From positions 96,001-160,000 of IMG/VR virus record IMGVR_UViG_3300035696_000005: DNA of 64,000 nucleotides; one strand, written 5' to 3'. The stretch is from a virus. A program made the translations under genes and the position numbers. Every line of letters starts with the position of its first letter. The stretch's first letter is position 1. Below, piece by piece: positions 32,471 through 52,581 of this stretch. The notes below the pieces were generated by a model, which was not told where the DNA came from, did not search any database, and worked only from the letters and a program-made list of their open reading frames with translations.

Positions 32471-32472
32471 AT

Positions 32473-32546
32473 TGGAGCCCCAACCGGGAGTTGAACCCGG
32501 GCGTCCTGACTGGCAGTCAGGCATGCTACCGTAACATCTCTGAGGC
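32473..32546 (-). tRNA. tRNA-Gly(GCC)
   Basis: CCTGA-CTGCCAG-TCAGG; CCA. Confidence 0.9.
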
Positions 32547-32610
32547 ATTGAACTTGTATTAGGAAAATTCCCCTATTGAAACGCTGTTCACCCAGTGTTT
32601 CAATAGGGGT

Positions 32611-33378: not shown

Positions 33379-33479
33379 GCCGCTGTTTATCATTCACGGA
33401 AGTGTCGGCAGTTTAACGTAACTATGTGCTTTTTCACGATTTAGTGATCTCCTTATCAGTCACGTTATCATTCAAAAAT

Positions 33480-33554
33480 TGGAGCCCCGAGCGAGAGTCG
33501 AACTCGCTTCACCAGATTGGAAGTCTGGCACATCACCACCAATGTTTTCGAGGC
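33480..33554 (-). tRNA. tRNA-Gly(UCC)
   Basis: CCAGA-CTTCCAA-TCTGG. Confidence 0.9.
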
Positions 33555-33555
33555 A

Positions 33556-33630
33556 TGGAGCCGCTACCGGTGTTCGCACCCGGATCGCTACATTACCAAT
33601 GTAGAGCTCTGCTACTTAAGCTATAGCGGC
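33556..33630 (-). tRNA. tRNA-Thr(GGU)
   Basis: CTACA-TTGGTAA-TGTAG. Confidence 0.9.
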
Positions 33631-33637
33631 ATTAAAA

Positions 33638-33711
33638 TGGTACCCCAGCAAGGAATTGCACCCTGTCGAGCTGTTTCGAAGACAGCCATGCGTCTACTAC
33701 ATCACTGGGGC
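33638..33711 (-). tRNA. tRNA-Arg(UCG)
   Basis: GCTGT-CTTCGAA-ACAGC. Confidence 0.85.
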
Positions 33712-33781
33712 TCAGGATATTGGTGCGCGGCCACGCACCTCACTGATAGTTAAAAAAGCCGAGCCCGAAGGCTCGGCGAAA

Positions 33782-34027
33782 CTAAAGCAAATGAAGTTCG
33801 TACTTGCTGTTCTGTGTTTGGAACAGGTACTTACTTTCTTCTTTGAGAAACGAGCACTCCTTGATTTCGGTTGTGAGAACAATCCTGAGATTACCCTCTT
33901 CAAGTGGTGGAGCAGTCATTAGAAAAGTCTTCCCAACTTCAGGAAGCTCCATACATTTCCCGACAATCTCGTTTGTCCTTAGGTTGTTGTGATTAGACTG
34001 AATCTTCACTAACCGTACTTCGTACAT
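33782..34027 (-). CDS. Hypothetical protein
   Basis: SD AGGAG; followed by terminator at 33751-33778. Confidence 0.65.
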   Translation of the reverse strand: MYEVRLVKIQSNHNNLRTNEIVGKCMELPEVGKTFLMTAPPLEEGNLRIVLTTEIKECSFLKEESKYLFQTQNSKYELHLL

Positions 34028-34034
34028 AAATCTC

Positions 34035-34775
34035 CTAGTCGATATTTTCCTGCTGGTAGATTTCCATCTCTGGGAATCTTAGAGCAGTGAGTTTTCCGTA
34101 GTAAGGTCTCAACGGATCACCGAGAATCGTTATGCCCTTATAAGCACATCCCGTATCAATGTTGGCATACCAGTCTTGGATATCAGGACCACTTTGCTGT
34201 GGCGTGTGTCCGTGGACGTTATACCAATTTTTGACGTTCTTCCTCGGTGGCTTGTAGCGGTTCCAGATGAAGGTCTGTCCGTCCCAGCCAAATTTTTTAA
34301 CCTGATTCTCAAGATGACCCTGACCGACAGGGGCGTGAGTGATCAAAAGATGCCTTCCATTCTTGTGCTTGAGTTCCTCGTACTCAAGATAAAGCGGAAG
34401 TGCCTTGATGTACTCTTGGTGCTTTTTCAGAACCTCGATACCTTCACAGGTGTGTGCTCTGTTGATTACTGTTTCTCCTGGATGCGGATAGAGTAGTCCA
34501 TCTGGACAGCTACAGTAGCTTGCGTAAGCCTTAAGTCCTCCGTTGTAGAGCCACAAGCCTTCTTGCTTATCATCCGACATGAAATCATCGTGGTTTCCTT
34601 TGATACATGTGATCTTGTTATCGATGATGTATTGGATGAGCTCGCGGGTTCTTGGTCCACGATCAGGGAGATCTCCTGCAACCACAAAAGGCTCGCCTGG
34701 AAATTTGGCCGTCATGTCTTCATGAAGCTTCTTGAACGTTAGAAAACATCCGTGCGGATCTGTCGTGATAATCAT
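34035..34775 (-). CDS. Metallophosphoesterase (PPP/PphA-like)
   Basis: TDPHG, GDLPDRG, GNHD, HGHTP, IDTG. Confidence 0.9.
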   Translation of the reverse strand: MIITTDPHGCFLTFKKLHEDMTAKFPGEPFVVAGDLPDRGPRTRELIQYIIDNKITCIKGNHDDFMSDDKQEGLWLYNGGLKAYASYCSCPDGLLYPHPGETVINRAHTCEGIEVLKKHQEYIKALPLYLEYEELKHKNGRHLLITHAPVGQGHLENQVKKFGWDGQTFIWNRYKPPRKNVKNWYNVHGHTPQQSGPDIQDWYANIDTGCAYKGITILGDPLRPYYGKLTALRFPEMEIYQQENID

Positions 34776-34813
34776 ATAGATCTCCTTGGAAGTCTCATAC
34801 CAGCATTTTAAAG

Positions 34814-34890
34814 TGGTAGGGATGGTGAGAATCGAACTCACTTGATGTCTTGCTCCCAAAGCAAGCGGCTAGCCTTTGGCCCACATCCCT
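34814..34890 (-). tRNA. tRNA-Pro(UGG)
   Basis: CTTGC-TTTGGGA-GCAAG. Confidence 0.92.
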
Positions 34891-34989
34891 ACATTAAAAT
34901 TGCATTCCGATGCCCGGTCACCCTAACTCACAACTTCGCATGTGACGCATATTCCAGCAACCGGCCTCTTTGACCTGGCTGATGAAAAT

Positions 34990-35056
34990 TGGAGCGGGCT
35001 GTTGGCTTCTAACCGAAAGAGCTTATGCTGCAGCAACTTCTCTTTCCAGACCCCGC
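34990..35056 (-). ncRNA. CCA-ended tRNA-like element lacking a D arm
   Basis: GCGGG/CCCGC-T-CCA ends; AAAGAG/CTCTTT central stem. Confidence 0.3.
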
Positions 35057-35063
35057 ATAGTAA

Positions 35064-35303
35064 CTAATTGGCCGCAATAGATCCACGGCGTTTAAATTCG
35101 ATAGCCTCTCTGGCTTTTTCCAGCGCCTCTTGCATAGGGAGACGCATGCTGCTTGCTGACAGTACTGTCCATAAACGAAGTGGTTCGTCACTATCTTTCA
35201 GCGTTACCTGATAACCTACTTTTGCACCACGCTCAGGAATCCAGGCGACGGTTTCGAAATTCTCGCTTTTCAGTACGCACTGCCTAAAGAAGTCATCTTT
35301 CAT
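35064..35303 (-). CDS. Hypothetical protein
   Basis: SD AGGAG. Confidence 0.65.
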   Translation of the reverse strand: MKDDFFRQCVLKSENFETVAWIPERGAKVGYQVTLKDSDEPLRLWTVLSASSMRLPMQEALEKAREAIEFKRRGSIAAN

Positions 35304-35317
35304 ATAGTCTCCTAAAA

Positions 35318-35396
35318 TGGTGCCCCCAGCCAGCTCCGCCCTGGCACATTCACCGAGTCTCAGTCGATGCTCTCTACTAATCTGGAGTATAGGGGC
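35318..35396 (-). tRNA. tRNA-Leu(GAG), short variable loop
   Basis: ATCGA-CTGAGAC-TCGGT; A73; CCA. Confidence 0.75.
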
Positions 35397-35400
35397 ATAA

Positions 35401-35580
35401 TCAGTTGGCTGAAATTTTCGGATCTCTCCAGACTAAGGAGTCTGTGAGTACGTCAATGTAGTAAAGAATGCGTCCTCTTTCGTCTCGCTCTTTCTTCACC
35501 TTAAGTCCACCAACCTGTTCGTTGATGCGAATGACTTCTTTGATTCCTTCGTCGAATTCTGAGCCAATGATGACCTTCAT
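35401..35580 (-). CDS. 59-aa hypothetical (not in track)
   Basis: MKVIIGSEFDEGIKEV...; TAATG overlap. Confidence 0.6.
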   Translation of the reverse strand: MKVIIGSEFDEGIKEVIRINEQVGGLKVKKERDERGRILYYIDVLTDSLVWRDPKISAN

Positions 35581-35837
35581 TAGTATCCTCCCCTTTTCCT
35601 GATAACCTTACTTTCTTTGAAGCAGTAGTCTAGGTTCACCTTATCAGCGTCTGCTTTGTTTTGACCCCCAGCATGGCTGTTGGCAAGGTAGTATTGCTCC
35701 ACGCCGTCTATGCAACCGTACTCGTACCAGTTGGAACCCGTCATTCGCACGTAAGCGTAGGCAGCGAAGTATGCTGTCGGAATAAACAGCAGCATAACAA
35801 GCACCAGAGCAGCGAGCGACATGGCGATATATTTCAC
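35580..35837 (-). CDS. Small membrane protein
   Basis: N-terminal TM helix. Confidence 0.6.
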   Translation of the reverse strand: MKYIAMSLAALVLVMLLFIPTAYFAAYAYVRMTGSNWYEYGCIDGVEQYYLANSHAGGQNKADADKVNLDYCFKESKVIRKRGGY

Positions 35838-35851
35838 TGACTATCCTTTAA

Positions 35852-35934
35852 TGGTGACCCTGGAGGGACTTGCACCCCCACGCCGAAGCATAAGTTCCTA
35901 AGACTTACGTGTCTGCTAATTCCACCACAGGGCC
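35852..35934 (-). tRNA. tRNA-Leu(UAG)
   Basis: TAAGT-CTTAGGA-ACTTA; long variable arm. Confidence 0.92.
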
Positions 35935-35940
35935 ACATCC

Positions 35941-36477
35941 CTACAAAAAGTCCTTGAGATAAGACTCCCACACAGCCGGATCATTTGGCAAGTACTGGAT
36001 TGTCATCGCAGGCTCCCATGAAGGTTTGAATGGCTCCCTAAGGAGTTTCATTTTAGCTTCTTGAGGTGTCCTGTTTCTCTTCTTCTGGTTGCAAGGTTTG
36101 CAAGCAGTCACGATGTTAGTCCAAGACTTGTAAGAGTCTGGCGTTCGATTACTCTTAGGAATTACGTGGTCAAGCGTGAGCTTGGCTGCTGGAAATTTCT
36201 TACAGCAGTATTGGCAGATGTAGCCATCTCGCCAGAACACGTTGGGCCTGGAGAATTTTACGAAACGCCTCTTATAGTGTCCCGCTCCATTAAGCATCAT
36301 TACGCAAGGAAGATTGAGAGTAAGGCGCTGAGAGCGTATGGGAATATCAGCGTATTCTTCTAAAACATCCGCCTTACCCTCGTAAAGCTTTTCAATGGCT
36401 TTCCTACCATTGATTACATCGATAGGCTGCATGCCTTGATCAAGAAGTAACACACGGACTTTTTCTAAGTTTGCCAT
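35941..36477 (-). CDS. HNH endonuclease (McrA-like)
   Basis: RDGYICQYC...TLDHVIP...WTNIVTACKPCN..K. Confidence 0.92.
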   Translation of the reverse strand: MANLEKVRVLLLDQGMQPIDVINGRKAIEKLYEGKADVLEEYADIPIRSQRLTLNLPCVMMLNGAGHYKRRFVKFSRPNVFWRDGYICQYCCKKFPAAKLTLDHVIPKSNRTPDSYKSWTNIVTACKPCNQKKRNRTPQEAKMKLLREPFKPSWEPAMTIQYLPNDPAVWESYLKDFL

Positions 36478-36504
36478 ACAGCCTCCTCTCTGGGTTTACG
36501 TTAA

Positions 36505-36583
36505 TGGTGCCGGTGATCGGACTTGCACCGATAAGCAGTAAGGTTTGAGCTTACTAGGTATGCTAGATTCCCTTCACACCGGC
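36505..36583 (-). tRNA. tRNA-Leu(CAA), short variable loop
   Basis: GTAAG-CTCAAAC-CTTAC; A73. Confidence 0.78.
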
Positions 36584-37015
36584 TCGTTTCCAATTAAACT
36601 GTTTTGCGGTCCTACGCCTATGGCAGTTTGCACAGCGGACTTCGCATTTACTGATTTCCTCTTCAATGGCTTTCCAGCTGTAGGCACCGCGAACAAGCAG
36701 TGTCACAGCACTGATCTTAAGGTCACGGTCAACGTGATCAAAGTCAAGGACAACCAGATCGTCTTCGCCGCAGTCCACACACGGATGCTCAAGCAAATAC
36801 TTGAAAAGTTTTTCGTAATTCTCTGCCCTAATGTCCTTGTTGCGCTTGCGAGCCTTTTTCTTGTAATAGCCTTTATTATTCTGATAGTGATCGCGAAGCC
36901 TGGCTCTACGGCACTCAGTACAATAAGACCTGCGCGTGCCGGTCTTTGGATTCTTGATGTCAAACTCTTCGATGGACTTCTCAAGCTTACACGGACCAGT
37001 GCAGCGTTTAGTCAT
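36563..37015 (-). mobile_element. HNH homing endonuclease (leaderless); 3' end overlaps the tRNA 5' end
   Basis: CVDCG...LDFDHV...KCEVRCANCH; TTGACA-17-TACACT-7-ATG. Confidence 0.85.
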
Positions 37016-37054
37016 TAAACAGAGTGTAGGTAATAATTTCCGCTATGTCAAATC

Positions 37055-37130
37055 TGGTGCCCGTGATGGGTACTGCCCCCAAAAGACGGCGGATTTTAAG
37101 TCCACCCGATATACTATTCTCTACACAGGC
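37055..37130 (-). tRNA. tRNA-Leu(UAA), short variable loop
   Basis: GTGGA-CTTAAAA-TCCGC; A73. Confidence 0.78.
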
Positions 37131-37134
37131 AAAC

Positions 37135-37208
37135 TGGCGTCGCTTAAGGGAGTTGAACCCTTCTTGTCCGACTGAGAATCGGAAGTCCTACCGATAGACG
37201 AAAGCGAC
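37135..37208 (-). tRNA. tRNA-Glu(CUC)
   Basis: TCCGA-TTCTCAG-TCGGA. Confidence 0.9.
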
Positions 37209-37209
37209 A

Positions 37210-37497
37210 TCAAAGCTTAATCTTATCCCGATACTTCTTCATGGCCCGCTCGACTGTGCCTACGAGCTTTCCTTCGTCCTCGGCTAAGGCAGCGTGTTCT
37301 AGAGCCTCGTGTTTGAGGTCATCGCCCCAATCAAGAAGCCTGCAACGCTCTTTAGGATCAGATTCTTTTGCAGCCAGAATAAAGACAGCCATTGCGCGAG
37401 ATGCCCACTTTGACGCAGTCTCGCGCTCGATCTGTTTTTCGCTTTTAGTCTGAACTTCCTTCATGGCTTCGGCGATATCGAATCCGATTTTGAACAT
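37210..37497 (-). CDS. Hypothetical helical protein
   Basis: 95-aa ORF between tRNAs. Confidence 0.6.
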   Translation of the reverse strand: MFKIGFDIAEAMKEVQTKSEKQIERETASKWASRAMAVFILAAKESDPKERCRLLDWGDDLKHEALEHAALAEDEGKLVGTVERAMKKYRDKIKL

Positions 37498-37512
37498 TTG
37501 TCTATTATATCA

Positions 37513-37588
37513 TGGTGGACTACATGGGAATCGAACCCATCAAAAACTGATTGCAAATCAGCCTACTTCCCCAGCTGTTTCGTAGCCC
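37513..37588 (-). tRNA. tRNA-Ala(UGC)
   Basis: Loop TTTGCAA; G3:U70; A73. Confidence 0.9.
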
Positions 37589-37647
37589 ATTGAAATTTGG
37601 CATTGGGGAGAGCCCGGCAACTAGGCCGTATGACTCTCCCCAATCTT

Positions 37648-37830
37648 TTAGCCGAACAGAATTCGGCGCGCTTGAGTCAGCGTCTGAGCCGACATGAATT
37701 CGGCTTCCACTTTTTTCTCTTGCGCACGCTTCTTGTGAAGCGCTTTGTAGTTGGTCAGACTACGAAATGGGCTTAACACCCATCTTTCCTTCCCGTCCTG
37801 GGTAAGGAACTTCCTCTTGATCTGGTTCAT
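37648..37830 (-). CDS. Small basic protein
   Basis: SD AAGGAGG. Confidence 0.6.
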   Translation of the reverse strand: MNQIKRKFLTQDGKERWVLSPFRSLTNYKALHKKRAQEKKVEAEFMSAQTLTQARRILFG

Positions 37831-37932
37831 AACAGACCCTCCTTCAGCTTTTGAGCGAAGAAGAGGTCTAGAAAGGATCTTCCGTAGTCATAGGCAGATG
37901 ATGCCTGATGATGTTTTCAAAATCAAATTAAA

Positions 37933-38007
37933 TGGCAGGGGATGAAGGTAGTGCGCCCTCTTCTGCTGGTTTGGAATCAGCCGTGTTACTTTTATCACTA
38001 ATCCCCT
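37933..38007 (-). tRNA. tRNA-Trp(CCA)
   Basis: Loop TTCCAAA; G73. Confidence 0.85.
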
Positions 38008-38018
38008 ACTGGAAAAAC

Positions 38019-38093
38019 TGGGGTCGCGTACGGGTTCTGCCCCCGCCTGTTCACCTTGAAAGGATGATGACCTCACTAGAAGTCGAACGCGAC
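38019..38093 (-). tRNA. tRNA-Glu(UUC)
   Basis: TCATC-CTTTCAA-GGTGA. Confidence 0.85.
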
Positions 38094-38098
38094 AAACT

Positions 38099-38175
38099 TG
38101 GGGTGATCGACGGGAGTTGCACCCGCTTACCCTGCTTCACAGGCAGGTACCTCAGCTACTTCGGTTTCAACCACC
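38099..38175 (-). tRNA. tRNA-His(GUG)
   Basis: CCTGC-CTGTGAA-GCAGG; encoded G-1:C73. Confidence 0.92.
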
Positions 38176-38184
38176 ACTGGAACT

Positions 38185-38259
38185 TGGTCGCTACGGGGGC
38201 ACTTGCATCCCCTTCAGCAGGATATGAATCTGCAGCTTTACTTTATAAGCTACGTAGCG
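38185..38259 (-). tRNA. tRNA-Met/Ile2 (CAU)
   Basis: Loop TTCATAT. Confidence 0.8.
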
Positions 38260-38312
38260 AAATGAGCAATCATCAGCCGCCTTCTGCAGTTCGGCTGTAT
38301 CTTCGCTGATGA

Positions 38313-38654
38313 TTACCACTTGGCTGCTTGTTCAGCAGCATGAAACTTTCGATGACAATTTGCGCACAAGATGTCGCATTTTTTTAATTCAATTAGTATG
38401 CGTTCTTTGCTCGCGTGATGAGCCAGTAACTTTGACATTTCTGAATCTTTTTCTGATGGATCTCGATGATGAAAATCCAGGCAAGCTCTGTCTGTCTCTC
38501 CGCATTTTTTGCATTTGATATTCGGCGTAATCTCAACGAACCACTGCCTAATTTCTCTTCTTCGTGCCTGATTTCTTGAGTGATAGGCTTCTTTGTTTTT
38601 GAGGTAATGTTTGCGCTGAGCTGTTCTTTGTTTTTTTGTATCTGAGTAAGGCAT
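38313..38654 (-). mobile_element. HNH homing endonuclease (leaderless)
   Basis: CKKCG...LDFHH...KKCDILCANCH; TTTACA-18-TATGAT-7-ATG. Confidence 0.85.
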
Positions 38655-38701
38655 GGTTCGTATCATACGCTATAGATATGAACTTTGTAAATTTAAAGGA
38701 A

Positions 38702-38766
38702 TCGGGGGAGGTGATTCGATACACCATCTCCGGCTTTCGCCGGGCTCTAACTTAAGCTATCCCCCG
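38702..38766 (-). ncRNA. tRNA-like RNA with a GAAA tetraloop in place of the anticodon loop
   Basis: CGGGGGA/TCCCCCG, GCT..AGC D arm, CCGGC-GAAA-GCCGG, GGTG-TATCGAAT-CACC; no CCA. Confidence 0.7.
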
Positions 38767-38769
38767 TCA

Positions 38770-38841
38770 TGGATGCAGGTCCTAGGGATGCCCTAGGGTC
38801 TTCTGGTTATGAGCCAGACATGGTCTCTCCACTAACCTGCA
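38770..38841 (-). tRNA. tRNA-Met(CAU), atypical T arm
   Basis: TCTGG-CTCATAA-CCAGA; directly after promoter TTGACA-17-CATAGT. Confidence 0.75.
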
Positions 38842-38877
38842 AAATCTACTATGGCAAATCTTGCCGCCTTTGTCAAA

Positions 38878-38950
38878 TGGTCCGCGCTCCGGTTCCGCCC
38901 CGGTCCCTAACTCTTATAAGGAGTTTGTTGTTCTACTCAACTAAACGCGG
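38878..38950 (-). tRNA. tRNA-Ile(UAU)
   Basis: AACTC-CTTATAA-GAGTT. Confidence 0.85.
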
Positions 38951-38982
38951 ATGTATACTGAAAAAGACCATCTTGGAGATAT

Positions 38983-39924
38983 ATGAAAACAGAAAACTTC
39001 TATGTCATCGCAGTGATCAGCAACCCCATTCGTTTCAAAAGCCGCTACGCCCTCTATCAAAAATTTGAAGCAGAAGTCAAGGCCGCAGGAGCACAACTTC
39101 TGACTGTGGAGTGCGCGCTTGGAGACAGACCACACATGGTTACGGAGTCGAATAATCCGTGGCATCTTCAGCTCAGAACCTGGGACGAAATTTGGCATAA
39201 AGAAAACATGATCAATCTTGGGCTAGCACGCCTTCCTTCCAATTGGGAATACGTCGCTTGGATTGATGCCGATGTTTCTTTCATCCGAAAAGATTGGGTT
39301 CTTGAAACCATCCATCAACTTCAGCACTACATGGTTGTTCAAATGTGGGAGACCGCTATTGATCTAGGACCAACCGGTAGCGCTCTTGCGACTCATCATT
39401 CGTTCATTTCTCAGTACATCAAGGGTAAACCTTATTGCTACGGGCGACCTGGCGGCTACTACTATGAACAATGGCATCCAGGCTATGCTTGGGCAGCCAG
39501 GCGCGAAGCAATTGATCATCTGGGTGGCATGATTGATACCGCAATCTTGGGTGCTGGCGATAACCATATGGCACACGCCCTGATCGGTATGCTCGATGGA
39601 TCGATCGCAAAAGGTCTTCACCCAAACTACATCAAGCACCTGACGACGTGGCAAGCTCGTGCTGAACGACATGTTCGTAGAGATGTTGGCTTTGTTCCTG
39701 GAACGATCTGTCATTCGTGGCACGGTAAAAAAGTGGACCGTAAATATCATGATCGCTGGAAGATTCTTGTGAATCACCAGTATGATCCGGATCTTGATCT
39801 TAAGCGCGACTCTCAGGGTCTTTATCAGCTCGTGGATCACGGGACACTCAGAAGTTCTCGTTTTCGCGATGATCTTCGTAGATACTTCCGCGCAAGAAAC
39901 GAAGACTCCATCGATCTAGAATAA
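38983..39924 (+). CDS. Putative GT-A-fold glycosyltransferase
   Basis: YVAWIDADVSF (DxD); SD GGAG. Confidence 0.55.
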   Translation: MKTENFYVIAVISNPIRFKSRYALYQKFEAEVKAAGAQLLTVECALGDRPHMVTESNNPWHLQLRTWDEIWHKENMINLGLARLPSNWEYVAWIDADVSFIRKDWVLETIHQLQHYMVVQMWETAIDLGPTGSALATHHSFISQYIKGKPYCYGRPGGYYYEQWHPGYAWAARREAIDHLGGMIDTAILGAGDNHMAHALIGMLDGSIAKGLHPNYIKHLTTWQARAERHVRRDVGFVPGTICHSWHGKKVDRKYHDRWKILVNHQYDPDLDLKRDSQGLYQLVDHGTLRSSRFRDDLRRYFRARNEDSIDLE

Positions 39925-39925
39925 A

Positions 39926-40000
39926 TGGTGCATCCCCACGGTACTGCCCCGTGTGCACTGCCGTGTAAAAGCAGCCGCTCACTTTTTGCTGTTGAGATGC
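39926..40000 (-). tRNA. tRNA-Val(UAC)
   Basis: CTGCT-TTTACAC-GGCAG. Confidence 0.82.
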
Positions 40001-40001
40001 A

Positions 40002-40074
40002 TGGTAGCCCTACCAGGAATCGGACCTGGGTTTCTTCCATGTCACGGAAGCGCTCTTCCATTGAGTTATAGGGC
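40002..40074 (-). tRNA. tRNA-Val(GAC)
   Basis: CTTCC-GTGACAT-GGAAG. Confidence 0.88.
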
Positions 40075-40084
40075 TATAGGAAAC

Positions 40085-40158
40085 TGGTTGGCCTTCCCGG
40101 TACCGCCCCGAGTTCTTGCGCCTATCAAGCGCAGGCATCACTTTAATGCTTAAGGCCA
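40085..40158 (-). tRNA. tRNA-Ile(GAU)
   Basis: TGCGC-TTGATAG-GCGCA. Confidence 0.88.
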
Positions 40159-40166
40159 GTCTTTTA

Positions 40167-40241
40167 TGGTGGGCCGCCCGAGGCTCGAACTCGGTTCTAC
40201 GGATTAAGAGTCCGCTGTGTCACCCGGTACACTTGCGACCC
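40167..40241 (-). tRNA. tRNA-Lys(CUU)
   Basis: GCGGA-CTCTTAA-TCCGT. Confidence 0.92.
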
Positions 40242-40264
40242 ACAAAAAATGGTATATGGTTTAG

Positions 40265-40338
40265 TGGTAGGCCCGAACGGTACTGCCCCGTTTTCCTTAG
40301 GTTAAAAGCCTAATGTATCACTTTAATACTTCGAGCCC
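40265..40338 (-). tRNA. tRNA-Lys(UUU)
   Basis: TTAGG-CTTTTAA-CCTAA. Confidence 0.9.
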
Positions 40339-40340
40339 AC

Positions 40341-40415
40341 TGGAGCCTCCGGTGTGAATTGCACACACGCTTTCTCTTTTGCAGAGAGATATCTCCCTAA
40401 TTCGATCACGGAGGC
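40341..40415 (-). tRNA. tRNA-Cys(GCA)
   Basis: TCTCT-CTGCAAA-AGAGA; U73. Confidence 0.9.
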
Positions 40416-40424
40416 ATAGAAAAT

Positions 40425-40500
40425 TGGAGCCAGCTCCGGCGTTCGCATCCGGTTTACCTGCTTACAAGACAGGAGTTTTACTACATAGAACTAAGCTGGC
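40425..40500 (-). tRNA. tRNA-Thr(UGU)
   Basis: CCTGT-CTTGTAA-GCAGG. Confidence 0.9.
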
Positions 40501-44700: not shown

Positions 44701-46335
44701 TTACAACTCAACCGAATTAACAACTGATTCGACATCCATTCCAAGCGTACCTACAGCTCCGAATAAGGCTGGAGTGAGCGTGTTATACACAATCATGGAA
44801 TCACAGTTTGGAACTGCCGACCAAGGATTTGAAGCTTGGTTGATCAGAATCAGCTTTGAACGTGAATTGACATTCTTTTGATACTTCAAGAATGCCTGAT
44901 CCAGCGGTGTTCCCTGATTTTGGGCTTCATCGGTGATGATGATGAACTTATCCACATGCTTATCTTCAGCCAACGCTTTTTCGATAATCATGGCCGGGTT
45001 GGTATAGCCAGCAGCATAAGGATATTCAAGTACCATCTTCATGTCGGTCTTACGGTTTCCAGTCCAGCGAGGAAATGCTGCAGCACCACGAGATGCCCCA
45101 ACGGAGCTTCCTTCGAAATGAAGCCTGCTATTTTCAAACCAGCTAAACCGAACGTCTCTAGCTTTACCATAGAATGCGTAAGCAAAAACGTTAGCAACTA
45201 GATACGACCATTGGTCAGAGTTTCCAAGACCACCGCGCATTGAGCCTGAGCTGTCAACACTGACTTCAATAACGTCATCAGCGATCCCATCGATTGGAGT
45301 GTCGAAAGAAGAAGCTAAAGCTTCAGCCTGGATTCCCTTGATCTGTGGATGACTCGTATGAACGTAGCTCTTGACGATGTCCAGCGGATTCATCCTTCCG
45401 CGCACAATAGCTTCAGGAGAAAGCATCTCACGATACTTCTCGATCGCACCGGTGAGCTCGAATACGCCGTGCTCGATGAATGAACGAGTATTCAAAAGAA
45501 GACCTTGAGTACCGCAGCTCATCATCAATGCAAACCACCAGCGTGGGTTGCTGCAAGGGACTGGCTTAAGCGTATCAAACGGAAGCTTATTCTCCAGGAT
45601 GATTCGACCCACAGCATCCAAATCGAAGTTCGGACGCTGCGCCATCGAGAGCACCTGCTCGTATGCCTTCTGCTGTGTTCCGTAAGGAACACCCTTACGG
45701 GTTCCTTCCTGCCCAGGGAACACGTAATCAAGCAGCGGGTTATTCCAGTCCGGGTGAGTCAAGCGAAGGAGGATTCGCATGTCATCCTTGTACTGGATCG
45801 TATAGCGCTCAAGCTTCTCAGGGCTCCAGCTCTTCATGACCTTACCGACCCAGCCTTGCTGGCGGTAGCCGAGACCCTTCGTGTACTTCTTTTGCATCTC
45901 GACATATTCCCGAAGCTGCTTCGGGTGATAAGTCGAAAGAAGATCCACAATGACGTCCCTGTAGTCAGCACAGAAGTCCTTGTTTGCGGACAGCGCAATA
46001 ACGCCAAGCTTAGGCGACATCTTGATATTGCTTCGACGAGCAAGCACAAGCGCCTTAAGCAGAAACAGAGGGTTGGTCTGTGCTGCTTCAGAGAACCTCT
46101 TTAGCATCTCGGAGGCTTGCTTATCTGCATCGCTGTAATACGTATTTCCAATCACACCGCACTGAGACATACGGAAAATATCACGAGCAAACGAAGGAGT
46201 GAATGCCGCGTATCCATGAGGATTGGTTGTGGTCGGAGTTTTTCCGCTTGCGTGCTTTTCCATAAGCTTTCCGCCACGGCTTGAAGCAGGCTTTGGTTCC
46301 CGGGTATTTCGAAATGCGTCGACGTTGTTTGCCAT
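44701..46335 (-). CDS. rsr: Ro60/TROVE-domain RNA-binding protein (Rsr-like)
   Basis: TTTNPHGYAAF, NTYY, FLLKALVLAR...MSPKL TROVE helices; C-terminal vWA VSVDSSGSM...FIIITDE; SD GGGAG before ATG 46335. Confidence 0.85.
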   Translation of the reverse strand: MANNVDAFRNTREPKPASSRGGKLMEKHASGKTPTTTNPHGYAAFTPSFARDIFRMSQCGVIGNTYYSDADKQASEMLKRFSEAAQTNPLFLLKALVLARRSNIKMSPKLGVIALSANKDFCADYRDVIVDLLSTYHPKQLREYVEMQKKYTKGLGYRQQGWVGKVMKSWSPEKLERYTIQYKDDMRILLRLTHPDWNNPLLDYVFPGQEGTRKGVPYGTQQKAYEQVLSMAQRPNFDLDAVGRIILENKLPFDTLKPVPCSNPRWWFALMMSCGTQGLLLNTRSFIEHGVFELTGAIEKYREMLSPEAIVRGRMNPLDIVKSYVHTSHPQIKGIQAEALASSFDTPIDGIADDVIEVSVDSSGSMRGGLGNSDQWSYLVANVFAYAFYGKARDVRFSWFENSRLHFEGSSVGASRGAAAFPRWTGNRKTDMKMVLEYPYAAGYTNPAMIIEKALAEDKHVDKFIIITDEAQNQGTPLDQAFLKYQKNVNSRSKLILINQASNPWSAVPNCDSMIVYNTLTPALFGAVGTLGMDVESVVNSVEL

Positions 46336-46350
46336 AAATCTCCCTACATA

Positions 46351-46396
46351 AAAAAAGAGAGGGACATAGCTTGCACAATGCAAGGTGGCCCCTCTC
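46351..46396 (-). terminator. Terminator between Y-RNA-like array and Ro60
   Basis: AGAGAGGG/CCCTCTCT outer stem followed by U6. Confidence 0.65.
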
Positions 46397-46408
46397 TGAG
46401 TTGAAAGA

Positions 46409-46471
46409 GCCACTGTGAATTGTAGAACCGGTTTTTCGTTTCAAGTGATGAACGGTTCCACGAAGAGTGGC
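46409..46471 (-). ncRNA. Y-RNA-like unit 4
   Basis: GCCACT/AGTGGC outer stem; GTGGAACCG/CGGTTCTAC inner stem; AACCGTTCATC motif. Confidence 0.7.
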
Positions 46472-46491
46472 GAACTTGGTACTTCAATTGT

Positions 46492-46624
46492 TTTACTACT
46501 ATAAACGGATCAACCGGTTTTTAGCGTCCTAGCCATTAGACGACCTAGACCAAGGTCTTGGGTGAGATTCGAACTCACATTTCCATCTTGTGTAGATGAA
46601 CGGTTAATTAACCAGAGTAGTAAA
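46492..46624 (-). ncRNA. YrlA-like Y RNA (unit 3) with a circularly permuted tRNA module
   Basis: TTTACTACT/AGTAGTAAA outer stem; order T arm (GTGAG-TTCGAAT-CTCAC), closed acceptor (CCAAGAC-CTTG-GTCTAGG), D arm (GTC-TAATGGCTAG-GAC). Confidence 0.8.
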
Positions 46625-46639
46625 TTTTCAAACAACAAA

Positions 46640-46699
46640 GCTACTGTGAATCGGACAACCGGTGTTCAGTGTATAGATGAACGGTTATCCAAGAGTAGC
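46640..46699 (-). ncRNA. Y-RNA-like unit 2
   Basis: GCTACT/AGTAGC; GGATAACCG/CGGTTGTCC; TTCA/TGAA. Confidence 0.7.
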
Positions 46700-46720
46700 G
46701 AACTTCAAAAACTTTTTGTG

Positions 46721-46789
46721 GGGAGCTACTGTGTTTTGATCAACCGGTTTTCATTTTTGCCGATGAACGGTTAATCGAGAGTAGCTCCC
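46721..46789 (-). ncRNA. Y-RNA-like unit 1
   Basis: GGGAGCTACT/AGTAGCTCCC 10-bp stem; same internal motifs; starts just after TATAAG at 46798-46803. Confidence 0.7.
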
Positions 46790-46845
46790 TCAACTTACTT
46801 ATAACAGAGTACCGGAAGATTGTTCCTAGTCAACTCTTTTTTAAA

Positions 46846-46938
46846 TGGCGGAGAAAGCTGGACTCGAACCAGATCCGGTCAAAGCCGGACTCAGAGTTTA
46901 GCAAACTCGCTATGCCGCCCGAGCATAGTTCATTCTCC
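46846..46938 (-). tRNA. tRNA-Ser(GCU)
   Basis: Loop TTGCTAA; long variable arm; G73. Confidence 0.9.
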
Positions 46939-47470: not shown

Positions 47471-47548
47471 TGGCTGCGGGAGCTGGGATCGAACCAGCCT
47501 CATTTCGCATTAACAGTGCGACGCACTCACCCTGAACGCTATCCCGCA
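47471..47548 (-). tRNA. tRNA-Asn(GUU), second copy
   Basis: TCGCA-CTGTTAA-TGCGA. Confidence 0.88.
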
Positions 47549-47901
47549 ACATCTAACTTTTCATGCTCCTCTGCGTGACAATTCAAACACAGTAGGACAC
47601 ATTTCTTTGCTTCAGCCAACACAGCCTTGTAAGAGCGCGTAATTCCTTTATTCGATACTCCGAAATCTTTCTTACTAGGGTCCGTATGGTGAAAACTTAG
47701 TGCTCCGTTACATTTGTTATAACCACACTTAGTACATTTACCTCCAAACTCATTAAGAAGCATTTCTTTTACACGCCTTCGTCGTCGTGCAACTGCTTCT
47801 GACCTGCATCTTACGCAGCGGTAATGCTGCTCACACTTAACGAAAATAAAGCTAGTTTTTCCATGCTTGCTGCAAACTCGATCAATATACTTTGTGGGCA
47901 T
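47539..47901 (-). mobile_element. HNH homing endonuclease (leaderless)
   Basis: CTKCGY...LSFHH.DP...KCVLLCLNCH; TATGAT-7-ATG. Confidence 0.85.
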
Positions 47902-47934
47902 GTTGGTTATCATAACACGTTAACCAACCTCCAT

Positions 47935-49134: not shown

Positions 49135-52100
49135 TTACTCGTTCACGGCAATTTTTGCCACAATATTTTGTGGCACTACCTCAAGCGAGGTTGTCGTGAG
49201 TTCTTTGGGGGAGATCTTGCTTGGAGTAAACCCAAGTGACTCAAGCTTAATTGCCCAGCAATAGTGCCTGTTTCCTTGGGGTGTGGTCACATACTTCGTA
49301 TTGGAAGTGCTCTTGGGGTCGTGCATACCAGGAGGAATATGCCCATCCTCAAGAAGCTGTCTTCCAATATGATGCTTACTCTGTGACCAGCTCTTGGATT
49401 TGTTGAGATGGGTCTCGACTTCTCCGTGAGCGGTGCCCGGGTAGATATAAACTACATCAGGCGTTTTCTCACGATAAAAGCCAAGTGCCTTTGAGCTCTT
49501 GTGCTCCGAAGGATCGTGCTCGCCCCAATTGATAATATGGTAGCGGGCAGGATCTTGAAGAAGCTCTTTAATTGAGTCCAAGAAAAGAGCTGCGGCACGC
49601 TGAGAGCCTGCGTTAGAGATGATTGTCTCACGACAGATCTCAAGGTTCTTTAGATGCCTCGCACAGAATTCATCCTTTCGTTTGTCTGGAATTACTCCCT
49701 TATCAACGAGAAGATCCATGATGAGTCTAAAGCCCGTCATATTGAATGCCAGGTTCTCGGAGATGCGGTAGCTGTTCTCTTTGACACCGGCTTCTTTATT
49801 TCTTTGTTCGAAGTAGGCAAGATACTCGTTGTAGATTCTCCTGACTTCTTCTTCGGTCATGTTGTACACGAACTGAATGAAGTAAGGGGTAAATCCGCAA
49901 TAGTCAATTCGTCTGTCCCGAACTTTGTTTCCCTTCTCAACGTTCATGCAGTTTTTCCCTGCATCAACCATGATCATGCGAGAAACAACGCTTGCTTCTT
50001 CAAGGGGACAGTCTTCTCCGGTAGTAGCCACAAGGCTTCTCACCCGAGTCGTCTTGTCCCTAAGCTCCCCATGCCTCTGAAGCGCCTGCCGACCAGAACG
50101 ATCGTAGGCATTCTGAATAAACTCCATCATCTGTTTGGTGTTGTGTTCATTCAAAGACTTCTTGAAGTCATCCATCACGAAGAATGCATCTCTGAATTTA
50201 TGCGCAATCTGAAGCTTGGCTAGTCCAGTGCTCTTCATGCCAGTCAGGCTTGAGAAGTTACCGTAAAAGCATTGCGCCATTTCAGCGATGAAGCTTTTTC
50301 CGTTTCCGAAGGAGCCCCCAATCCAAAGAACAGGGCTTTTCGTAAGCGGAATGTGAGACATGATGGAAGCAGCCATGGCGTGAGCAAAGAGCGCCATAGT
50401 TGCAATAGAAGAGTTACACTCGAAGTAATCCGTGATGATGTGAAGGGAAAGATCCTTGAATTGGCTTTCGTCAATGATCTTGAAGTCAAGAGACTTGCAA
50501 GTATCGTCGCTGAACTCCAGCTCAAACTCATCGTTTGGACGAATATAGTCTTTGGTAATAATCACCGAAGGAGAGATGTAAGCGTGCTCTCCTTTGATCA
50601 TGTAGTGACCAAAGTCTTCGACCTTTTTGCGGATGACTTTCAAGTCCTTGCTGAATGTTCCGATACAGTTACGAATCGCGTTGAAGTCTTGCGTTTCGTA
50701 CTGAACTTCTGTTCCAGCACGGTTCATGATGAACGTGAAAAATGCTTCCGAGCTTCTAAGCCATTCATCTGAGGCGGTCTTGAAAGTGTAGTGCTTTGTT
50801 CCAACATGAATAATGCCCTTGACCCACCTATGTTCGATGGTCTGTTCTTCTTTGGGATCATCGAGATCTTTAGGCTTAATCAGCGTAATTTCCTCTTTGA
50901 TCTCAATTGTGAAGTTGGTGATTGGAAGCGTCGACGGACTTCCATCCAGAGCTCTTGAAATCTGAACGTATCCTCCGTCTTTTTGCATGTAATCTTTGCC
51001 GTGGAAAGAGAAGTGCGGGTGGGTCTTTTTATCGATCTTTACCGCCTCTTCTTTAATCTCTTTGGCAACGATCTTCCTAAGCTGCTTTGCCTCTTTCTCC
51101 GGCATGTACTTCTTTACGGCAACGTAGCTATGGAAAGCACCGCCATCTTCTGGATCGAGCTTGCCAGCTGATGCGTAGATTTCTTTCACTCGAACAGCCA
51201 GATCTTCTGGCTCCGGTTCTTTCTTTTCTCTAAAAGAAAACAAAGCATCCAAAGCCTTAGTGAGCTGATCAAGAGTCATGTATCCGCTGGCAAAGCGAAC
51301 CGGACTAGGATCTTTCCACTCACTCTCCGGAAGATTATCTGGATTAACCACATACTGGTTATTCCGCATCTCTCCCGGCGGTATCTTCTTCATGCAGTGG
51401 TCCCGCTTAACCGGATGGGTACCGATTCGGCAAAGTCCTGATTCCTGCATTGCCTTACAAGTCCATGGATGTTGAGTTGATTCTAAGGCGTAATCGATCT
51501 CAGCCTCAATGCTGATGGATTTCCAGCGGTCTCTGACGATCTCAAGGCCGTTTTCCGTTGCAGCAGCAAAGGCAATAGATGCAGTCCGGTGATTGTGGTC
51601 GCCTTTAGCATCTGGTCCAATCTTGTACCTACCCGCTTCATCCTTTTCCCAGAACTGCTTTAGAGCTGGGCACCTCTCGACCACTTTCCAAAAGTCACCG
51701 CGTGGTGGAATGGGCTCTCGATTTTCCTTATCTGTTCCTGCGTTTGCAGCAGCCCTTCGACTTCTGCTCACCGGAACATTCAGAACTTCGATTTTTTGCT
51801 CAGCAATCACCTTCTCCAATTGCTCAAGAGTGATCTCTTTGCAGTTCGTAAAGTAGGACCACTGCTCATCTGTAGGGATTGGCTTTGCATCGTCGTCCAC
51901 CCAACAGTTGAACCCCTCCTTAATCTTAGGCTCAATCATTGGGATCTTGATACCATTACCAGGTTTTGCAGGATCGTAGTTCACCTGTTTCGGGAAAGTC
52001 TCAGGAATTTTCATCTCGATGTTTTCTTGATACCGAGCAGTGAATCCGACTTTCTCGTAAATGTGGTGAATTAAGCTTGTAAAAAGATGGGCTGGAACCG

Positions 52101-52581
52101 GAGTCGCAAAGAACCAATAAAGATGGTAGCCCTTCTTACTGGATCTTGCGATATAACTTGGCAACCCATACTTCATGCTCTCATCCCGAACTGCTTTGGC
52201 ATCTTCGAAGTGAGTTCCGTAATCAAAGTCGCAAGCGCCGAACTTGATTCCTTCTCTCTGGAGTAGGTGAAGGACCAGTTCTTTTTCTCCTGAGATGTGT
52301 TTCCAGATCCACTCGTCTGTGAGCGGCTGATACCGTTTGTGATCACATGTCGTGCATCCGCCTTTGTTTTGCGTGATTAGGCAAAGCTTCTGATTGCCAT
52401 AATTCATGCATTGCGGAGAGAAGGTCGAGACTTCTTCAACACGTGGATTCAGTTTTTCAATATCGTCTGGATCATAGACTGTCTTTTGAAATGTCTGGCG
52501 AACAGTGAAAACGTCTTCTCTGGAGCCGAATCTTTTTCGGAATAGATCAACTTTCTGCTTCCATACTTCTTGTTGAGTCAT
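49135..52581 (-). CDS. AEP primase-helicase fusion
   Basis: ACDFD, SSKKGYHLY (AEP motifs), Cys cluster (CPAL...WTC...GLC...HC), Walker A GGSFGNGKS, Walker B FVMDD. Confidence 0.88.
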   Translation of the reverse strand: MTQQEVWKQKVDLFRKRFGSREDVFTVRQTFQKTVYDPDDIEKLNPRVEEVSTFSPQCMNYGNQKLCLITQNKGGCTTCDHKRYQPLTDEWIWKHISGEKELVLHLLQREGIKFGACDFDYGTHFEDAKAVRDESMKYGLPSYIARSSKKGYHLYWFFATPVPAHLFTSLIHHIYEKVGFTARYQENIEMKIPETFPKQVNYDPAKPGNGIKIPMIEPKIKEGFNCWVDDDAKPIPTDEQWSYFTNCKEITLEQLEKVIAEQKIEVLNVPVSRSRRAAANAGTDKENREPIPPRGDFWKVVERCPALKQFWEKDEAGRYKIGPDAKGDHNHRTASIAFAAATENGLEIVRDRWKSISIEAEIDYALESTQHPWTCKAMQESGLCRIGTHPVKRDHCMKKIPPGEMRNNQYVVNPDNLPESEWKDPSPVRFASGYMTLDQLTKALDALFSFREKKEPEPEDLAVRVKEIYASAGKLDPEDGGAFHSYVAVKKYMPEKEAKQLRKIVAKEIKEEAVKIDKKTHPHFSFHGKDYMQKDGGYVQISRALDGSPSTLPITNFTIEIKEEITLIKPKDLDDPKEEQTIEHRWVKGIIHVGTKHYTFKTASDEWLRSSEAFFTFIMNRAGTEVQYETQDFNAIRNCIGTFSKDLKVIRKKVEDFGHYMIKGEHAYISPSVIITKDYIRPNDEFELEFSDDTCKSLDFKIIDESQFKDLSLHIITDYFECNSSIATMALFAHAMAASIMSHIPLTKSPVLWIGGSFGNGKSFIAEMAQCFYGNFSSLTGMKSTGLAKLQIAHKFRDAFFVMDDFKKSLNEHNTKQMMEFIQNAYDRSGRQALQRHGELRDKTTRVRSLVATTGEDCPLEEASVVSRMIMVDAGKNCMNVEKGNKVRDRRIDYCGFTPYFIQFVYNMTEEEVRRIYNEYLAYFEQRNKEAGVKENSYRISENLAFNMTGFRLIMDLLVDKGVIPDKRKDEFCARHLKNLEICRETIISNAGSQRAAALFLDSIKELLQDPARYHIINWGEHDPSEHKSSKALGFYREKTPDVVYIYPGTAHGEVETHLNKSKSWSQSKHHIGRQLLEDGHIPPGMHDPKSTSNTKYVTTPQGNRHYCWAIKLESLGFTPSKISPKELTTTSLEVVPQNIVAKIAVNE

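What the first reader, a model, noticed from the sequence alone, without database searches (positions are those of the whole stretch)
46492..46624. Circularly permuted tRNA module inside Y-RNA unit 3 (YrlA-type mimic)
Seen: read 5' to 3' on the minus strand, the insert is T arm (GTGAG-TTCGAAT-CTCAC), then an acceptor helix closed by a CTTG loop (CCAAGAC/GTCTAGG, one mismatch), then a D arm with the GG (GTC-TAATGGCTAG-GAC). There is no anticodon; the Y scaffold takes its place. Established: this is the topology described for YrlA RNAs. Inference: one member of the array presents a tRNA elbow, possibly as a decoy or scaffold for tRNA-targeting enzymes, while its three siblings have only short loops.
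Basis: partly seen in the sequence, partly recalled or inferred. Interest (0 to 1): 0.75.

Follow-up and report, generated by a model that had tools for sequence, protein, structure and literature searches.

The report
Phage Y RNA with tRNA-elbow mimic
In an uncultured 182-kb phage, the third of four small hairpin RNAs just upstream of a Ro60-type RNA-binding protein gene carries an inside-out imitation of the upper half of a tRNA, which is a divergent new example of the known bacterial and phage YrlA design.

Summary
On the minus strand, unit 3 (46624-46492) carries a T arm, a 7-bp closed acceptor-like hairpin and a D arm, in that order. A strict descriptor of this layout matches once in the 182-kb genome and never in 100 shuffled genomes. 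All the tRNA elbow nucleotides are present: U8, A14, A15:U48, G18, G19, A21, G53-C61, U54-U55-C56 and A58. When the module is de-permuted, ARAGORN calls it a tRNA.

The next gene downstream is a true Ro60 homologue: its predicted fold matches D. radiodurans Rsr at E 7e-16. The four units share a covarying two-helix scaffold and occur nowhere else in the genome. So this is a Ro60/Y-RNA locus with one YrlA-like tRNA mimic and three short siblings.

It is not a canonical YrlA:
- Rfam RF02553 gives 16 bits against a cut-off of 69.
- The GNCGAA motif is absent.
- YrlA's conserved T and D stem sequences are absent.
- An 8-nt A-rich linker replaces the tight junction with the anticodon-stem equivalent.

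No relatives' DNA could be fetched, so conservation of the module is untested. Phage Y-RNA arrays are already known (CcrColossus, phiLo), and this scan has noted similar loci in other phages. I rate it a new variant of a known kind, of moderate interest.

The parts
46492..46624 (-). Y-like unit 3 (133 nt): outer stem, internal loop, inner stem, V hairpin, and the T/acceptor/D module
   Evidence: Sequence. Scaffold model R1 scores 69.8 bits at 46490-46626. Fold z-score is -3.5.
46582..46600 (-). Apical hairpin of the scaffold (7 bp, 5-nt loop). It sits in the position of a tRNA variable arm, the 'V' stem-loop of YrlA.
   Evidence: Predicted in the MFE fold. Its 5' strand lies in the 11-nt block that is invariant in all four units.
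46562..46578 (-). T arm: 5-bp stem with loop UUCGAAU (U54 U55 C56 G57 A58) and G53-C61; preceded by U48
   Evidence: Aligned to the T arm of Rfam YrlA. 16 of 17 bases are identical to the T arm of the phage's own tRNA-Pro(UGG).
46544..46561 (-). Closed acceptor-stem mimic: 7 positions with one A.A mismatch, capped by a CUUG tetraloop
   Evidence: An alternative 5-bp hairpin competes with it in the MFE fold.
46526..46543 (-). U8-C9 connector plus D arm (4-bp stem, loop with A14 A15 U16 G18 G19 A21)
   Evidence: ARAGORN draws it as a D arm in the de-permuted sequence.
46517..46525 (-). G26 plus an 8-nt A-rich single-stranded linker (CUAAAAAC) leading into the inner scaffold helix
   Evidence: The A-rich run before ACCGGUU is shared by all four units. 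ARAGORN recognises the de-permuted RNA only when this linker is removed.
46720..46790 (-). Y-like unit 1 (short form)
   Evidence: R1 scores 78.1 bits; fold.
46635..46704 (-). Y-like unit 2 (short form)
   Evidence: R1 scores 80.9 bits; fold.
46404..46476 (-). Y-like unit 4 (short form)
   Evidence: R1 scores 85.9 bits; fold.
46349..46397 (-). Intrinsic-terminator-like hairpin with a U tract, between unit 4 and the Ro60 start codon
   Evidence: Fold -23.8 kcal/mol, z-score -2.8. The simple scan missed it because of its long interior.
44701..46335 (-). Ro60/Rsr homologue (544 aa): HEAT-repeat ring plus a vWA domain with the MIDAS DxSxS motif
   Evidence: Pfam vWA_Ro60 at 4e-7. phrog_850 at 8e-14. 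Profile against Rsr 2NVO at 1.9e-12. AlphaFold model (pLDDT 74) against 2NVO at E 6.9e-16, TM 0.68/0.74, and the 12 best listed PDB hits are all Ro60.

Best explanation
Unit 3 is a Y RNA of the YrlA kind and a partner of the phage's own Ro60 protein.

Shown:
- Four tandem units lie on the same strand directly upstream of a Ro60 homologue. They share a covarying stem / internal loop / stem scaffold with an invariant core.
- Unit 3 alone has a 62-nt cassette (T arm, closed 7-bp acceptor mimic, D arm) inserted between the scaffold's apical hairpin and its A-rich 3' strand.
- The cassette keeps every nucleotide needed for the tRNA elbow.

Inferred:
- The array is transcribed as one precursor, probably together with the upstream tRNA cluster, and is cut into single RNAs.
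- Phage Ro60 binds the shared scaffold of all four RNAs.
- In unit 3 the T and D loops dock to form a tRNA-like elbow stacked on the acceptor mimic. This elbow recruits a host protein that recognises tRNA elbows. By analogy with Rsr-YrlA-PNPase and the phiLo Ro60-Yrl-PNPase complexes, the recruited protein is probably an exoribonuclease, so Ro60 is coupled to RNA degradation or quality control in the infected cell.
- The three short units would give Ro60 particles without this adaptor, acting as gates or alternative adaptors, like YrlB and Yrn2.
For: - The descriptor is unique in the genome and absent from 100 shuffles.
- All elbow nucleotides and an A15:U48 Levitt pair are present, the features listed for YrlA in PMC4201824.
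- The de-permuted, capped module is called a tRNA by ARAGORN, with or without the V hairpin.
- The Rfam YrlA local alignment covers the T, AS and D arms. E is 1.8 over 4227 families, about 4e-4 for this one pre-specified family.
- The scaffold is 98% paired over 15 pairs. Five pairs have changes on both sides, and every slid control falls to 13-49% paired.
- There are exactly four scaffold copies in 182 kb, all in this array.
- The adjacent protein is Ro60 by profile and by fold.
- Precedents exist: three tandem YrlA-like RNAs upstream of the CcrColossus Ro gene, and two Yrl RNAs upstream of phiLo Ro60 that form Ro60-Yrl-PNPase complexes (PMC12135203).
- The phage encodes no PNPase/RNase PH, RtcB, CCA-adding enzyme or Rnl2-type ligase, so any effector must come from the host.
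Against: - No homologous locus could be retrieved, so the T, AS and D helices have no covariation support. The module rests on one sequence.
- The Rfam score of 16.3 bits is far below the cut-off, and below known phage YrlAs.
- The GNCGAA(N)G motif thought to contact Ro60 is absent, so Ro60 binding to this scaffold is inferred only from adjacency and architecture.
- The 8-nt linker means the D stem cannot stack on the scaffold helix as in a tRNA or in the YrlA crystal structure.
- An alternative hairpin is slightly favoured thermodynamically over the acceptor mimic.
- There are no expression data.
Confidence: 0.72

Rival explanations
1. The cassette is a non-functional relic. A piece of tRNA-derived DNA landed in unit 3 by recombination inside this tRNA-rich, HNH-endonuclease-rich region. 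Unit 3 is then simply a damaged or neutral copy of the short Y RNA.
For: - The T arm is 16/17 identical to that of the phage's tRNA-Pro(UGG).
- HNH endonuclease genes sit among the tRNAs.
- Unit 3 is the most divergent unit in its internal loop and 5' leader.
- No homologues were found.
- The MFE fold prefers another hairpin.
Against: - A random tRNA fragment would not be permuted and still have a newly complementary 7-position acceptor helix, closed by a stable CUUG tetraloop, placed exactly between the T arm and U8.
- The acceptor and D arms match no phage tRNA.
- Every tertiary-contact nucleotide is intact, including the 15:48 pair.
- The scaffold helices of unit 3 are intact, with compensatory changes.
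Confidence: 0.12
2. The elbow acts as a decoy or sponge for a host anti-phage factor that targets tRNAs. It would protect the phage's large tRNA set rather than serve as an adaptor for Ro60.
For: - The phage invests heavily in tRNAs: at least 24 in this window.
- The module has a canonical host-like T loop, while about ten of the phage's tRNAs have U-G-C T loops.
Against: - It has no anticodon loop and no free CCA end, which are the parts attacked by most known tRNA-targeting toxins.
- There is only one copy.
- Being embedded in the Ro60-linked scaffold argues for function within the Ro60 particle.
Confidence: 0.08
3. The module is a processing substrate. RNase P cuts 5' of G1 in the 7-bp acceptor mimic, as in M. 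smegmatis YrlA, giving a two-piece RNA or a tRNA-like half with a free 3' end.
For: M. smegmatis YrlA, the one YrlA with a 7-bp acceptor stem, is cleaved by RNase P and receives CCA (PMC4201824). Here the stem also has 7 positions.
Against: - The stem has an A.A mismatch at 5:68.
- The residues after position 72 are C-U-U-G, not CCA.
- The phage has no CCA-adding enzyme.
- This is a refinement of the main reading rather than an alternative to it.
Confidence: 0.06
4. It is a chance resemblance, or a phage attachment site that carries the 3' part of a host tRNA gene.
For: T arm plus acceptor 3' strand is what tRNA-targeting attP sites contain.
Against: - There were 0 hits in 100 shuffled genomes.
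- The D arm and a complementary acceptor 5' strand follow in permuted order, which an attP site would not need.
- There is no tyrosine integrase in the genome.
Confidence: 0.01

Closest known systems
YrlA (Y RNA-like A; Rfam RF02553), from S. Typhimurium, M. smegmatis, mycobacteriophages and Caulobacter phage CcrColossus (Chen et al. 2014, PMC4201824; structure 10.1101/312249)
   Same: - It is encoded beside, and on the same strand as, a Ro60 homologue.
- The order is V, T arm, closed acceptor stem, D arm, inside the RNA's 5'/3' stem.
- It has canonical T and D loops, U8 and a 15:48 Levitt pair.
- It is accompanied by shorter sibling Y RNAs.
   Different: - 16.3 bits against a cut-off of 69, with only model positions 30-81 aligned.
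- No GNCGAA(N)G motif.
- The T and D stem sequences are not the conserved YrlA ones.
- The connector is UC rather than UA.
- The 4-bp anticodon-stem equivalent that hugs the module in YrlA is replaced by the scaffold's own hairpin on one side and an 8-nt A-rich linker on the other.
Thermus phage phiLo Ro60 with Yrl1 and Yrl2 (PMC12135203)
   Same: Phage-encoded Ro60 with several Y-like RNAs directly upstream. The RNAs have stem / bulge / stem architecture. The phage has no PNPase, so the host enzyme is the proposed partner.
   Different: The phiLo Yrls were picked by a CGAA motif, and no YrlA or tRNA-like module is mentioned for them in that paper. Here the CGAA motif is missing, and one of the four RNAs has the module.
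CcrColossus tandem YrlA-like RNAs (L125 1498-1611, 1696-1792, 2000-2109)
   Same: A tandem array upstream of a phage Ro gene, next to tRNA genes.
   Different: All three CcrColossus units carry the tRNA-like module and match the YrlA model at 30-42 bits. Here one unit in four carries it, on an unrelated scaffold (R1 finds nothing in CcrColossus).
D. radiodurans Yrn1
   Same: A Ro60-bound Y RNA with a T-arm-like element, used to tether PNPase.
   Different: Yrn1 has the opposite orientation of its T and D elements and no full D arm.
Permuted T/acceptor/D module in Salmonella phage FelixO1 (L130 24631-24682), a lead from earlier notes of this scan and not published as far as I found
   Same: T arm, 7-bp acceptor hairpin with a 4-nt loop, and D arm. 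It lies in the tRNA array next to a gene annotated as an RNA-binding protein.
   Different: The flanking scaffold is different. R1 gives no significant match, and the proteins align only weakly over the vWA part.

Membership tests
YrlA (Rfam RF02553) | Encoded within about 2 kb of a Ro60/Rsr gene, usually on the same strand | tested here: met
   Unit 3 ends 157 nt upstream of the Ro60 start codon on the same strand. The protein is Ro60 by profile and by fold.
YrlA (Rfam RF02553) | Score at or above the curated gathering threshold (69 bits) | tested here: not met
   16.3 bits, local, model positions 30-81. Accepted phage YrlAs also fall below the cut-off: CcrColossus 42.3, 30.5 and 29.9; Catera 36.1.
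YrlA (Rfam RF02553) | T stem-loop and D stem-loop with the invariant tRNA loop nucleotides, in the order T then D | tested here: met
   The T loop is UUCGAAU. The D loop has A14, A15, G18, G19 and A21. G53-C61 is present.
YrlA (Rfam RF02553) | A closed acceptor-stem hairpin (AS) between the T and D arms, and a U8-type connector | tested here: met
   The stem has 7 positions with one mismatch and a CUUG loop. The connector is U-C, where YrlA has U-A. An alternative fold competes with it.
YrlA (Rfam RF02553) | Levitt pair 15:48 and the other elbow tertiary contacts are possible | tested here: met
   A15 and U48 are present, as are U8-A14, G18-U55, G19-C56 and U54-A58 (sequence inspection; criteria).
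YrlA (Rfam RF02553) | GNCGAA(N0-1)G motif near the 5' end (the presumed Ro60 contact) | tested here: not met
   The motif is absent from all four units. The invariant core here is AACCGUUCAUC ... ACCGGUU.
YrlA (Rfam RF02553) | Strongly conserved T-stem and D-stem sequences, and a short anticodon-stem equivalent directly flanking the module | tested here: not met
   Comparison with the model consensus shows different stems. An 8-nt linker follows G26. ARAGORN accepts the de-permuted RNA only without that linker.
YrlA (Rfam RF02553) | Bound by Ro60 in vivo; carries pseudouridine-55 and dihydrouridine from TruB and DusA | not testable with these tools
   This needs immunoprecipitation and modification mapping.
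Y RNA in the broad sense (Ro60 partner RNA) | 5' and 3' ends pair into a stem interrupted by an internal loop or bulge, conserved among paralogues | tested here: met
   There are 15 pairs in two helices, 98% paired, and 5 pairs have double changes. The folds of all four units agree.
Ro60 / Rsr (TROVE) protein family | HEAT-repeat ring plus a C-terminal vWA domain with a MIDAS motif | tested here: met
   Foldseek gives 2NVO at E 6.9e-16 over the full length, and the 12 best listed hits are all Ro60. D361, S363 and S365 are invariant in the alignment. The Pfam TROVE model itself does not hit; only vWA_Ro60 does.

The most novel reading that the evidence does not exclude
The module is an independent, convergent reinvention of the YrlA design. 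A T/acceptor/D cassette, whose T arm may have been borrowed from the phage's own tRNA-Pro, was inserted into a Ro60-binding scaffold that uses a different recognition core from all described Y RNAs. That would show that Ro60 particles recruit tRNA elbows repeatedly. It would also define a separate phage Y-RNA family, in which one shared handle carries exchangeable cargo, that current Rfam models cannot see.
Probability: 0.3. Interest if true: 0.6.

Novelty: new variant of a known kind. Interest (0 to 1): 0.45.

Why it matters
Ro60-Y RNA particles are conserved from bacteria to humans, yet it is still unknown which factor reads the tRNA-like domain of bacterial Y RNAs. This locus is a natural comparison: four RNAs on one scaffold, of which only one carries the elbow. 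Pull-downs with unit 3 against units 1, 2 and 4 would isolate the elbow-specific partner directly.

It also shows that Rfam's YrlA model misses divergent phage versions. Phage Ro60 systems are therefore likely to be under-annotated, and Ro60 recognition may not depend on the GNCGAA-type motif.

Tried and rejected
1. **Finding relatives' DNA.** None of these routes worked:
- The search for related loci with the protein or with a 7-sequence alignment found nothing in viral, metagenome or genome contigs.
- A 16-base scaffold pattern gave only chance single hits in viral contigs. Model R1 finds nothing in the 100 of those loci that I searched, L002-L101.
- A 23-base pattern gave nothing in viral contigs. 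It gave one chance hit in a high-GC bacterial coding region in the metagenomes.
- blastn and tblastn against GenBank phages gave only a tRNA-Phe match and one 22%-identical Ro protein, from Sinorhizobium phage Phosso. Nothing Y-like was detected beside that gene.
- The listing of cluster members gave no accession numbers.

2. **Tymovirus tRNA-like element.** The Rfam hit (23.8 bits against a cut-off of 40) reflects only the T arm and neighbouring hairpins. Rejected.

3. **A flawed comparison.** My first comparison with the phage tRNAs read only the first line of ARAGORN's wrapped sequences and so missed the T arms. It was redone.

4. **Amber suppressor idea.** I first took the tRNA-like gene at 46938-46850 for an amber suppressor. 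A 7-nt loop with U33 gives anticodon GCU (Ser), so I dropped that idea.

5. **Link to FelixO1.** Its Y-like RNAs were a lead from earlier notes. The permuted module is there, but there is no detectable scaffold or protein homology.

6. **attP reading.** Rejected.

Full report
**Setting.** The window is bases 96001-160000 of a 182,359-bp IMG/VR virus record that CheckV rates as complete. The minus strand around the finding reads, 5' to 3':
- a tRNA cluster from 47548 down to 46944 (Asn, Asn, Tyr, Phe, Gln, Ser);
- a further type-II tRNA-like gene at 46938-46850;
- four related hairpin units;
- a terminator-like hairpin with a U tract at 46397-46349;
- 14 nt later, a 544-codon ORF at 46335-44701.

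**The observation.**
- T arm at 46578-46562, a 5-bp stem with loop UUCGAAU.
- Acceptor-like hairpin at 46561-46544, with 7 positions, one A.A mismatch and a CUUG tetraloop.
- U-C connector.
- D arm at 46541-46526, a 4-bp stem with an 8-nt loop.

In tRNA numbering the module has U8, A14, A15, G18, G19, A21, G26, U48, G53-C61, U54, U55, C56 and A58. The contacts U8-A14, A15-U48 (Levitt pair), G18-U55, G19-C56 and U54-A58 can therefore all form. These are the criteria used for YrlA in PMC4201824.

I tested the layout against chance with a strict descriptor of the permuted order. It matches one place in the whole genome on both strands, which is this one, and it gave no hit in 100 dinucleotide-preserving shuffles of the genome. 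With the allowed acceptor hairpin widened, the same descriptor recovers known phage YrlAs as positive controls: CcrColossus twice and Catera once.

I then de-permuted the module, joining its halves through the innermost 5 bp of the scaffold capped with an arbitrary 7-nt loop. ARAGORN calls this a tRNA, both with the apical hairpin as a long variable arm and without it. It does so only if the 8-nt linker after G26 is left out.

**The scaffold and the array.**
- The four units align with an invariant 11-nt block (AACCGUUCAUC) and an invariant ACCGGUU.
- A structure of two helices (6 + 9 pairs) is 98% paired. Five pairs have changes on both sides. Partners slid by 1-3 columns fall to 13-49% paired.
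- A covariance model of the scaffold (R1) finds exactly these four copies in the 182-kb genome, at 70-86 bits, and nothing else significant.
- Units 1, 2 and 4 end in a small hairpin. Unit 3 has the same hairpin, then the 62-nt cassette, then the shared A-rich 3' strand.
- The cassette is therefore best described as an insertion into a common scaffold. The scaffold's own apical hairpin falls in the position of the tRNA variable arm, the 'V' stem-loop of YrlA.

**The neighbouring protein.**
- Pfam detects only the Ro60 vWA domain (4e-7), and PHROGs gives the 'RNA-binding protein' family phrog_850.
- A profile of the protein and six homologues matches D. radiodurans Rsr (2NVO) at 1.9e-12, Xenopus Ro60 at 2e-6 and human RO60 at 1e-5.
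- An AlphaFold model (pLDDT 74) matches 2NVO over its full length at E 6.9e-16 and TM 0.68/0.74. The 12 best listed PDB hits are all Ro60 proteins, including the Thermus phage phiLo one.
- The MIDAS DxSxS motif is invariant.
- The locus is therefore a Ro60 gene preceded by four candidate partner RNAs.

**Comparison with YrlA.**
- Rfam's YrlA model aligns locally to exactly the T, AS and D arms (model 30-81) at 16.3 bits.
- E is 1.8 after multiplication by 4227 families. That is about 4e-4 if only this pre-specified family is counted.
- The score is far below the 69-bit cut-off, but accepted phage YrlAs are below it too: CcrColossus 42.3, 30.5 and 29.9 bits, and mycobacteriophage Catera 36.1 bits.
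- Four things are missing here: the GNCGAA(N)G motif thought to contact Ro60, the conserved YrlA T and D stem sequences, the U-A connector, and the 4-bp anticodon-stem equivalent that clasps the module in the model and in the crystal structure.
- In their place are the scaffold's own hairpin and an 8-nt A-rich linker.
- So it works like YrlA in layout, but I do not file it as a member of RF02553.

**Origin.**
- Properly compared (one search was flawed), the T arm is 16/17 identical to that of the phage's tRNA-Pro(UGG) at 34890-34814.
- The acceptor and D arms match no phage tRNA better than background.
- This fits a cassette assembled from tRNA parts, in the spirit of the dimeric-tRNA origin proposed for YrlA, and not a recent copy of one tRNA.

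**Mechanism.**
- Shown: the anatomy described above and the Ro60 neighbour.
- Inferred from the families involved: Ro60 binds the shared scaffold, and the unit-3 elbow recruits a host tRNA-elbow-binding protein. The precedents are Rsr-YrlA-PNPase and phiLo Ro60-Yrl-PNPase.
- The phage has no PNPase/RNase PH, RtcB, CCA-adding enzyme or Rnl2-type ligase, so the effector would come from the host.
- There is no convincing sigma-70 promoter between the last tRNA and unit 1. The terminator sits 14 nt before the Ro60 start codon. The array is therefore probably co-transcribed with the tRNAs, and Ro60 would be made by read-through.

**Weak points.**
- The module stands on one sequence.
- The minimum-energy fold prefers a different 5-bp hairpin in the acceptor segment by 1.7 kcal/mol.
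- The linker prevents tRNA-like stacking of the D stem on the scaffold.
- There are no expression data.

**Novelty.**
- Phage Ro60 genes are common: 418 GenBank phage records match.
- Phage Y RNAs with tRNA-like domains were reported in 2014 (22 phages).
- Tandem copies exist in CcrColossus and phiLo.
- Earlier notes of this scan describe similar 'shared handle, one with a scrambled tRNA' arrays in other phages. I verified one of these in FelixO1, but it shows no detectable homology to this scaffold.
- What is new here is the variant: a different invariant core in place of the GNCGAA motif, a cassette inserted into a common scaffold with a flexible linker, and only one elbow-bearing RNA among four.

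Noticed in passing
window 46850-46938 (minus): A type-II tRNA-like gene with a long variable arm and an encoded CCA. ARAGORN does not call it, and Rfam sees it only as tRNA-Sec at 31 bits (cut-off 47). A 7-nt anticodon loop with U33 gives anticodon GCU (Ser). The acceptor stem looks like 8 bp, the T stem 4 bp and the D stem 6 bp.
   Followed up: partly
window 18918-18995 (minus): ARAGORN calls a tRNA with anticodon CUA (labelled Pyl). It could be an amber suppressor. I did not check whether the phage recodes TAG.
   Followed up: no
window 32066-40500 (minus), tRNA genes: About ten of the 24 tRNA genes listed have a T loop that starts U-G-C or G-G-C instead of U-U-C, that is, no U55. The Y-RNA module has the canonical loop.
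   Followed up: partly
window 46349-46397 (minus): A terminator-like hairpin ends 14 nt before the Ro60 start codon, leaving no room for a promoter. Ro60 expression would need read-through from the tRNA/Y-RNA transcript.
   Followed up: partly
L125 (Caulobacter phage CcrColossus) 1498-2109: Three tandem YrlA-like matches lie upstream of the Ro gene. The second (1696-1792) overlaps the annotated tRNA-Gln at 1661-1728, which may be a mis-annotated part of a Y RNA.
   Followed up: partly
L130 (Salmonella phage FelixO1) 24631-24682: A permuted T arm / 7-bp closed acceptor / D arm module lies in a gap of the tRNA array, 1.1 kb downstream of ORF42 (annotated as an RNA-binding protein). Rfam YrlA did not report it at E up to 10.
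   Followed up: partly
window 49135-52581 (minus): A 1148-aa protein with an N-terminal archaeo-eukaryotic primase domain of the TOTE type (Pfam PF22548, 1.6e-31).
   Followed up: no
window 47539-47913 (minus): An HNH endonuclease gene (phrog_2255, 1.6e-25) abuts the first tRNA-Asn of the cluster that precedes the Y array.
   Followed up: no
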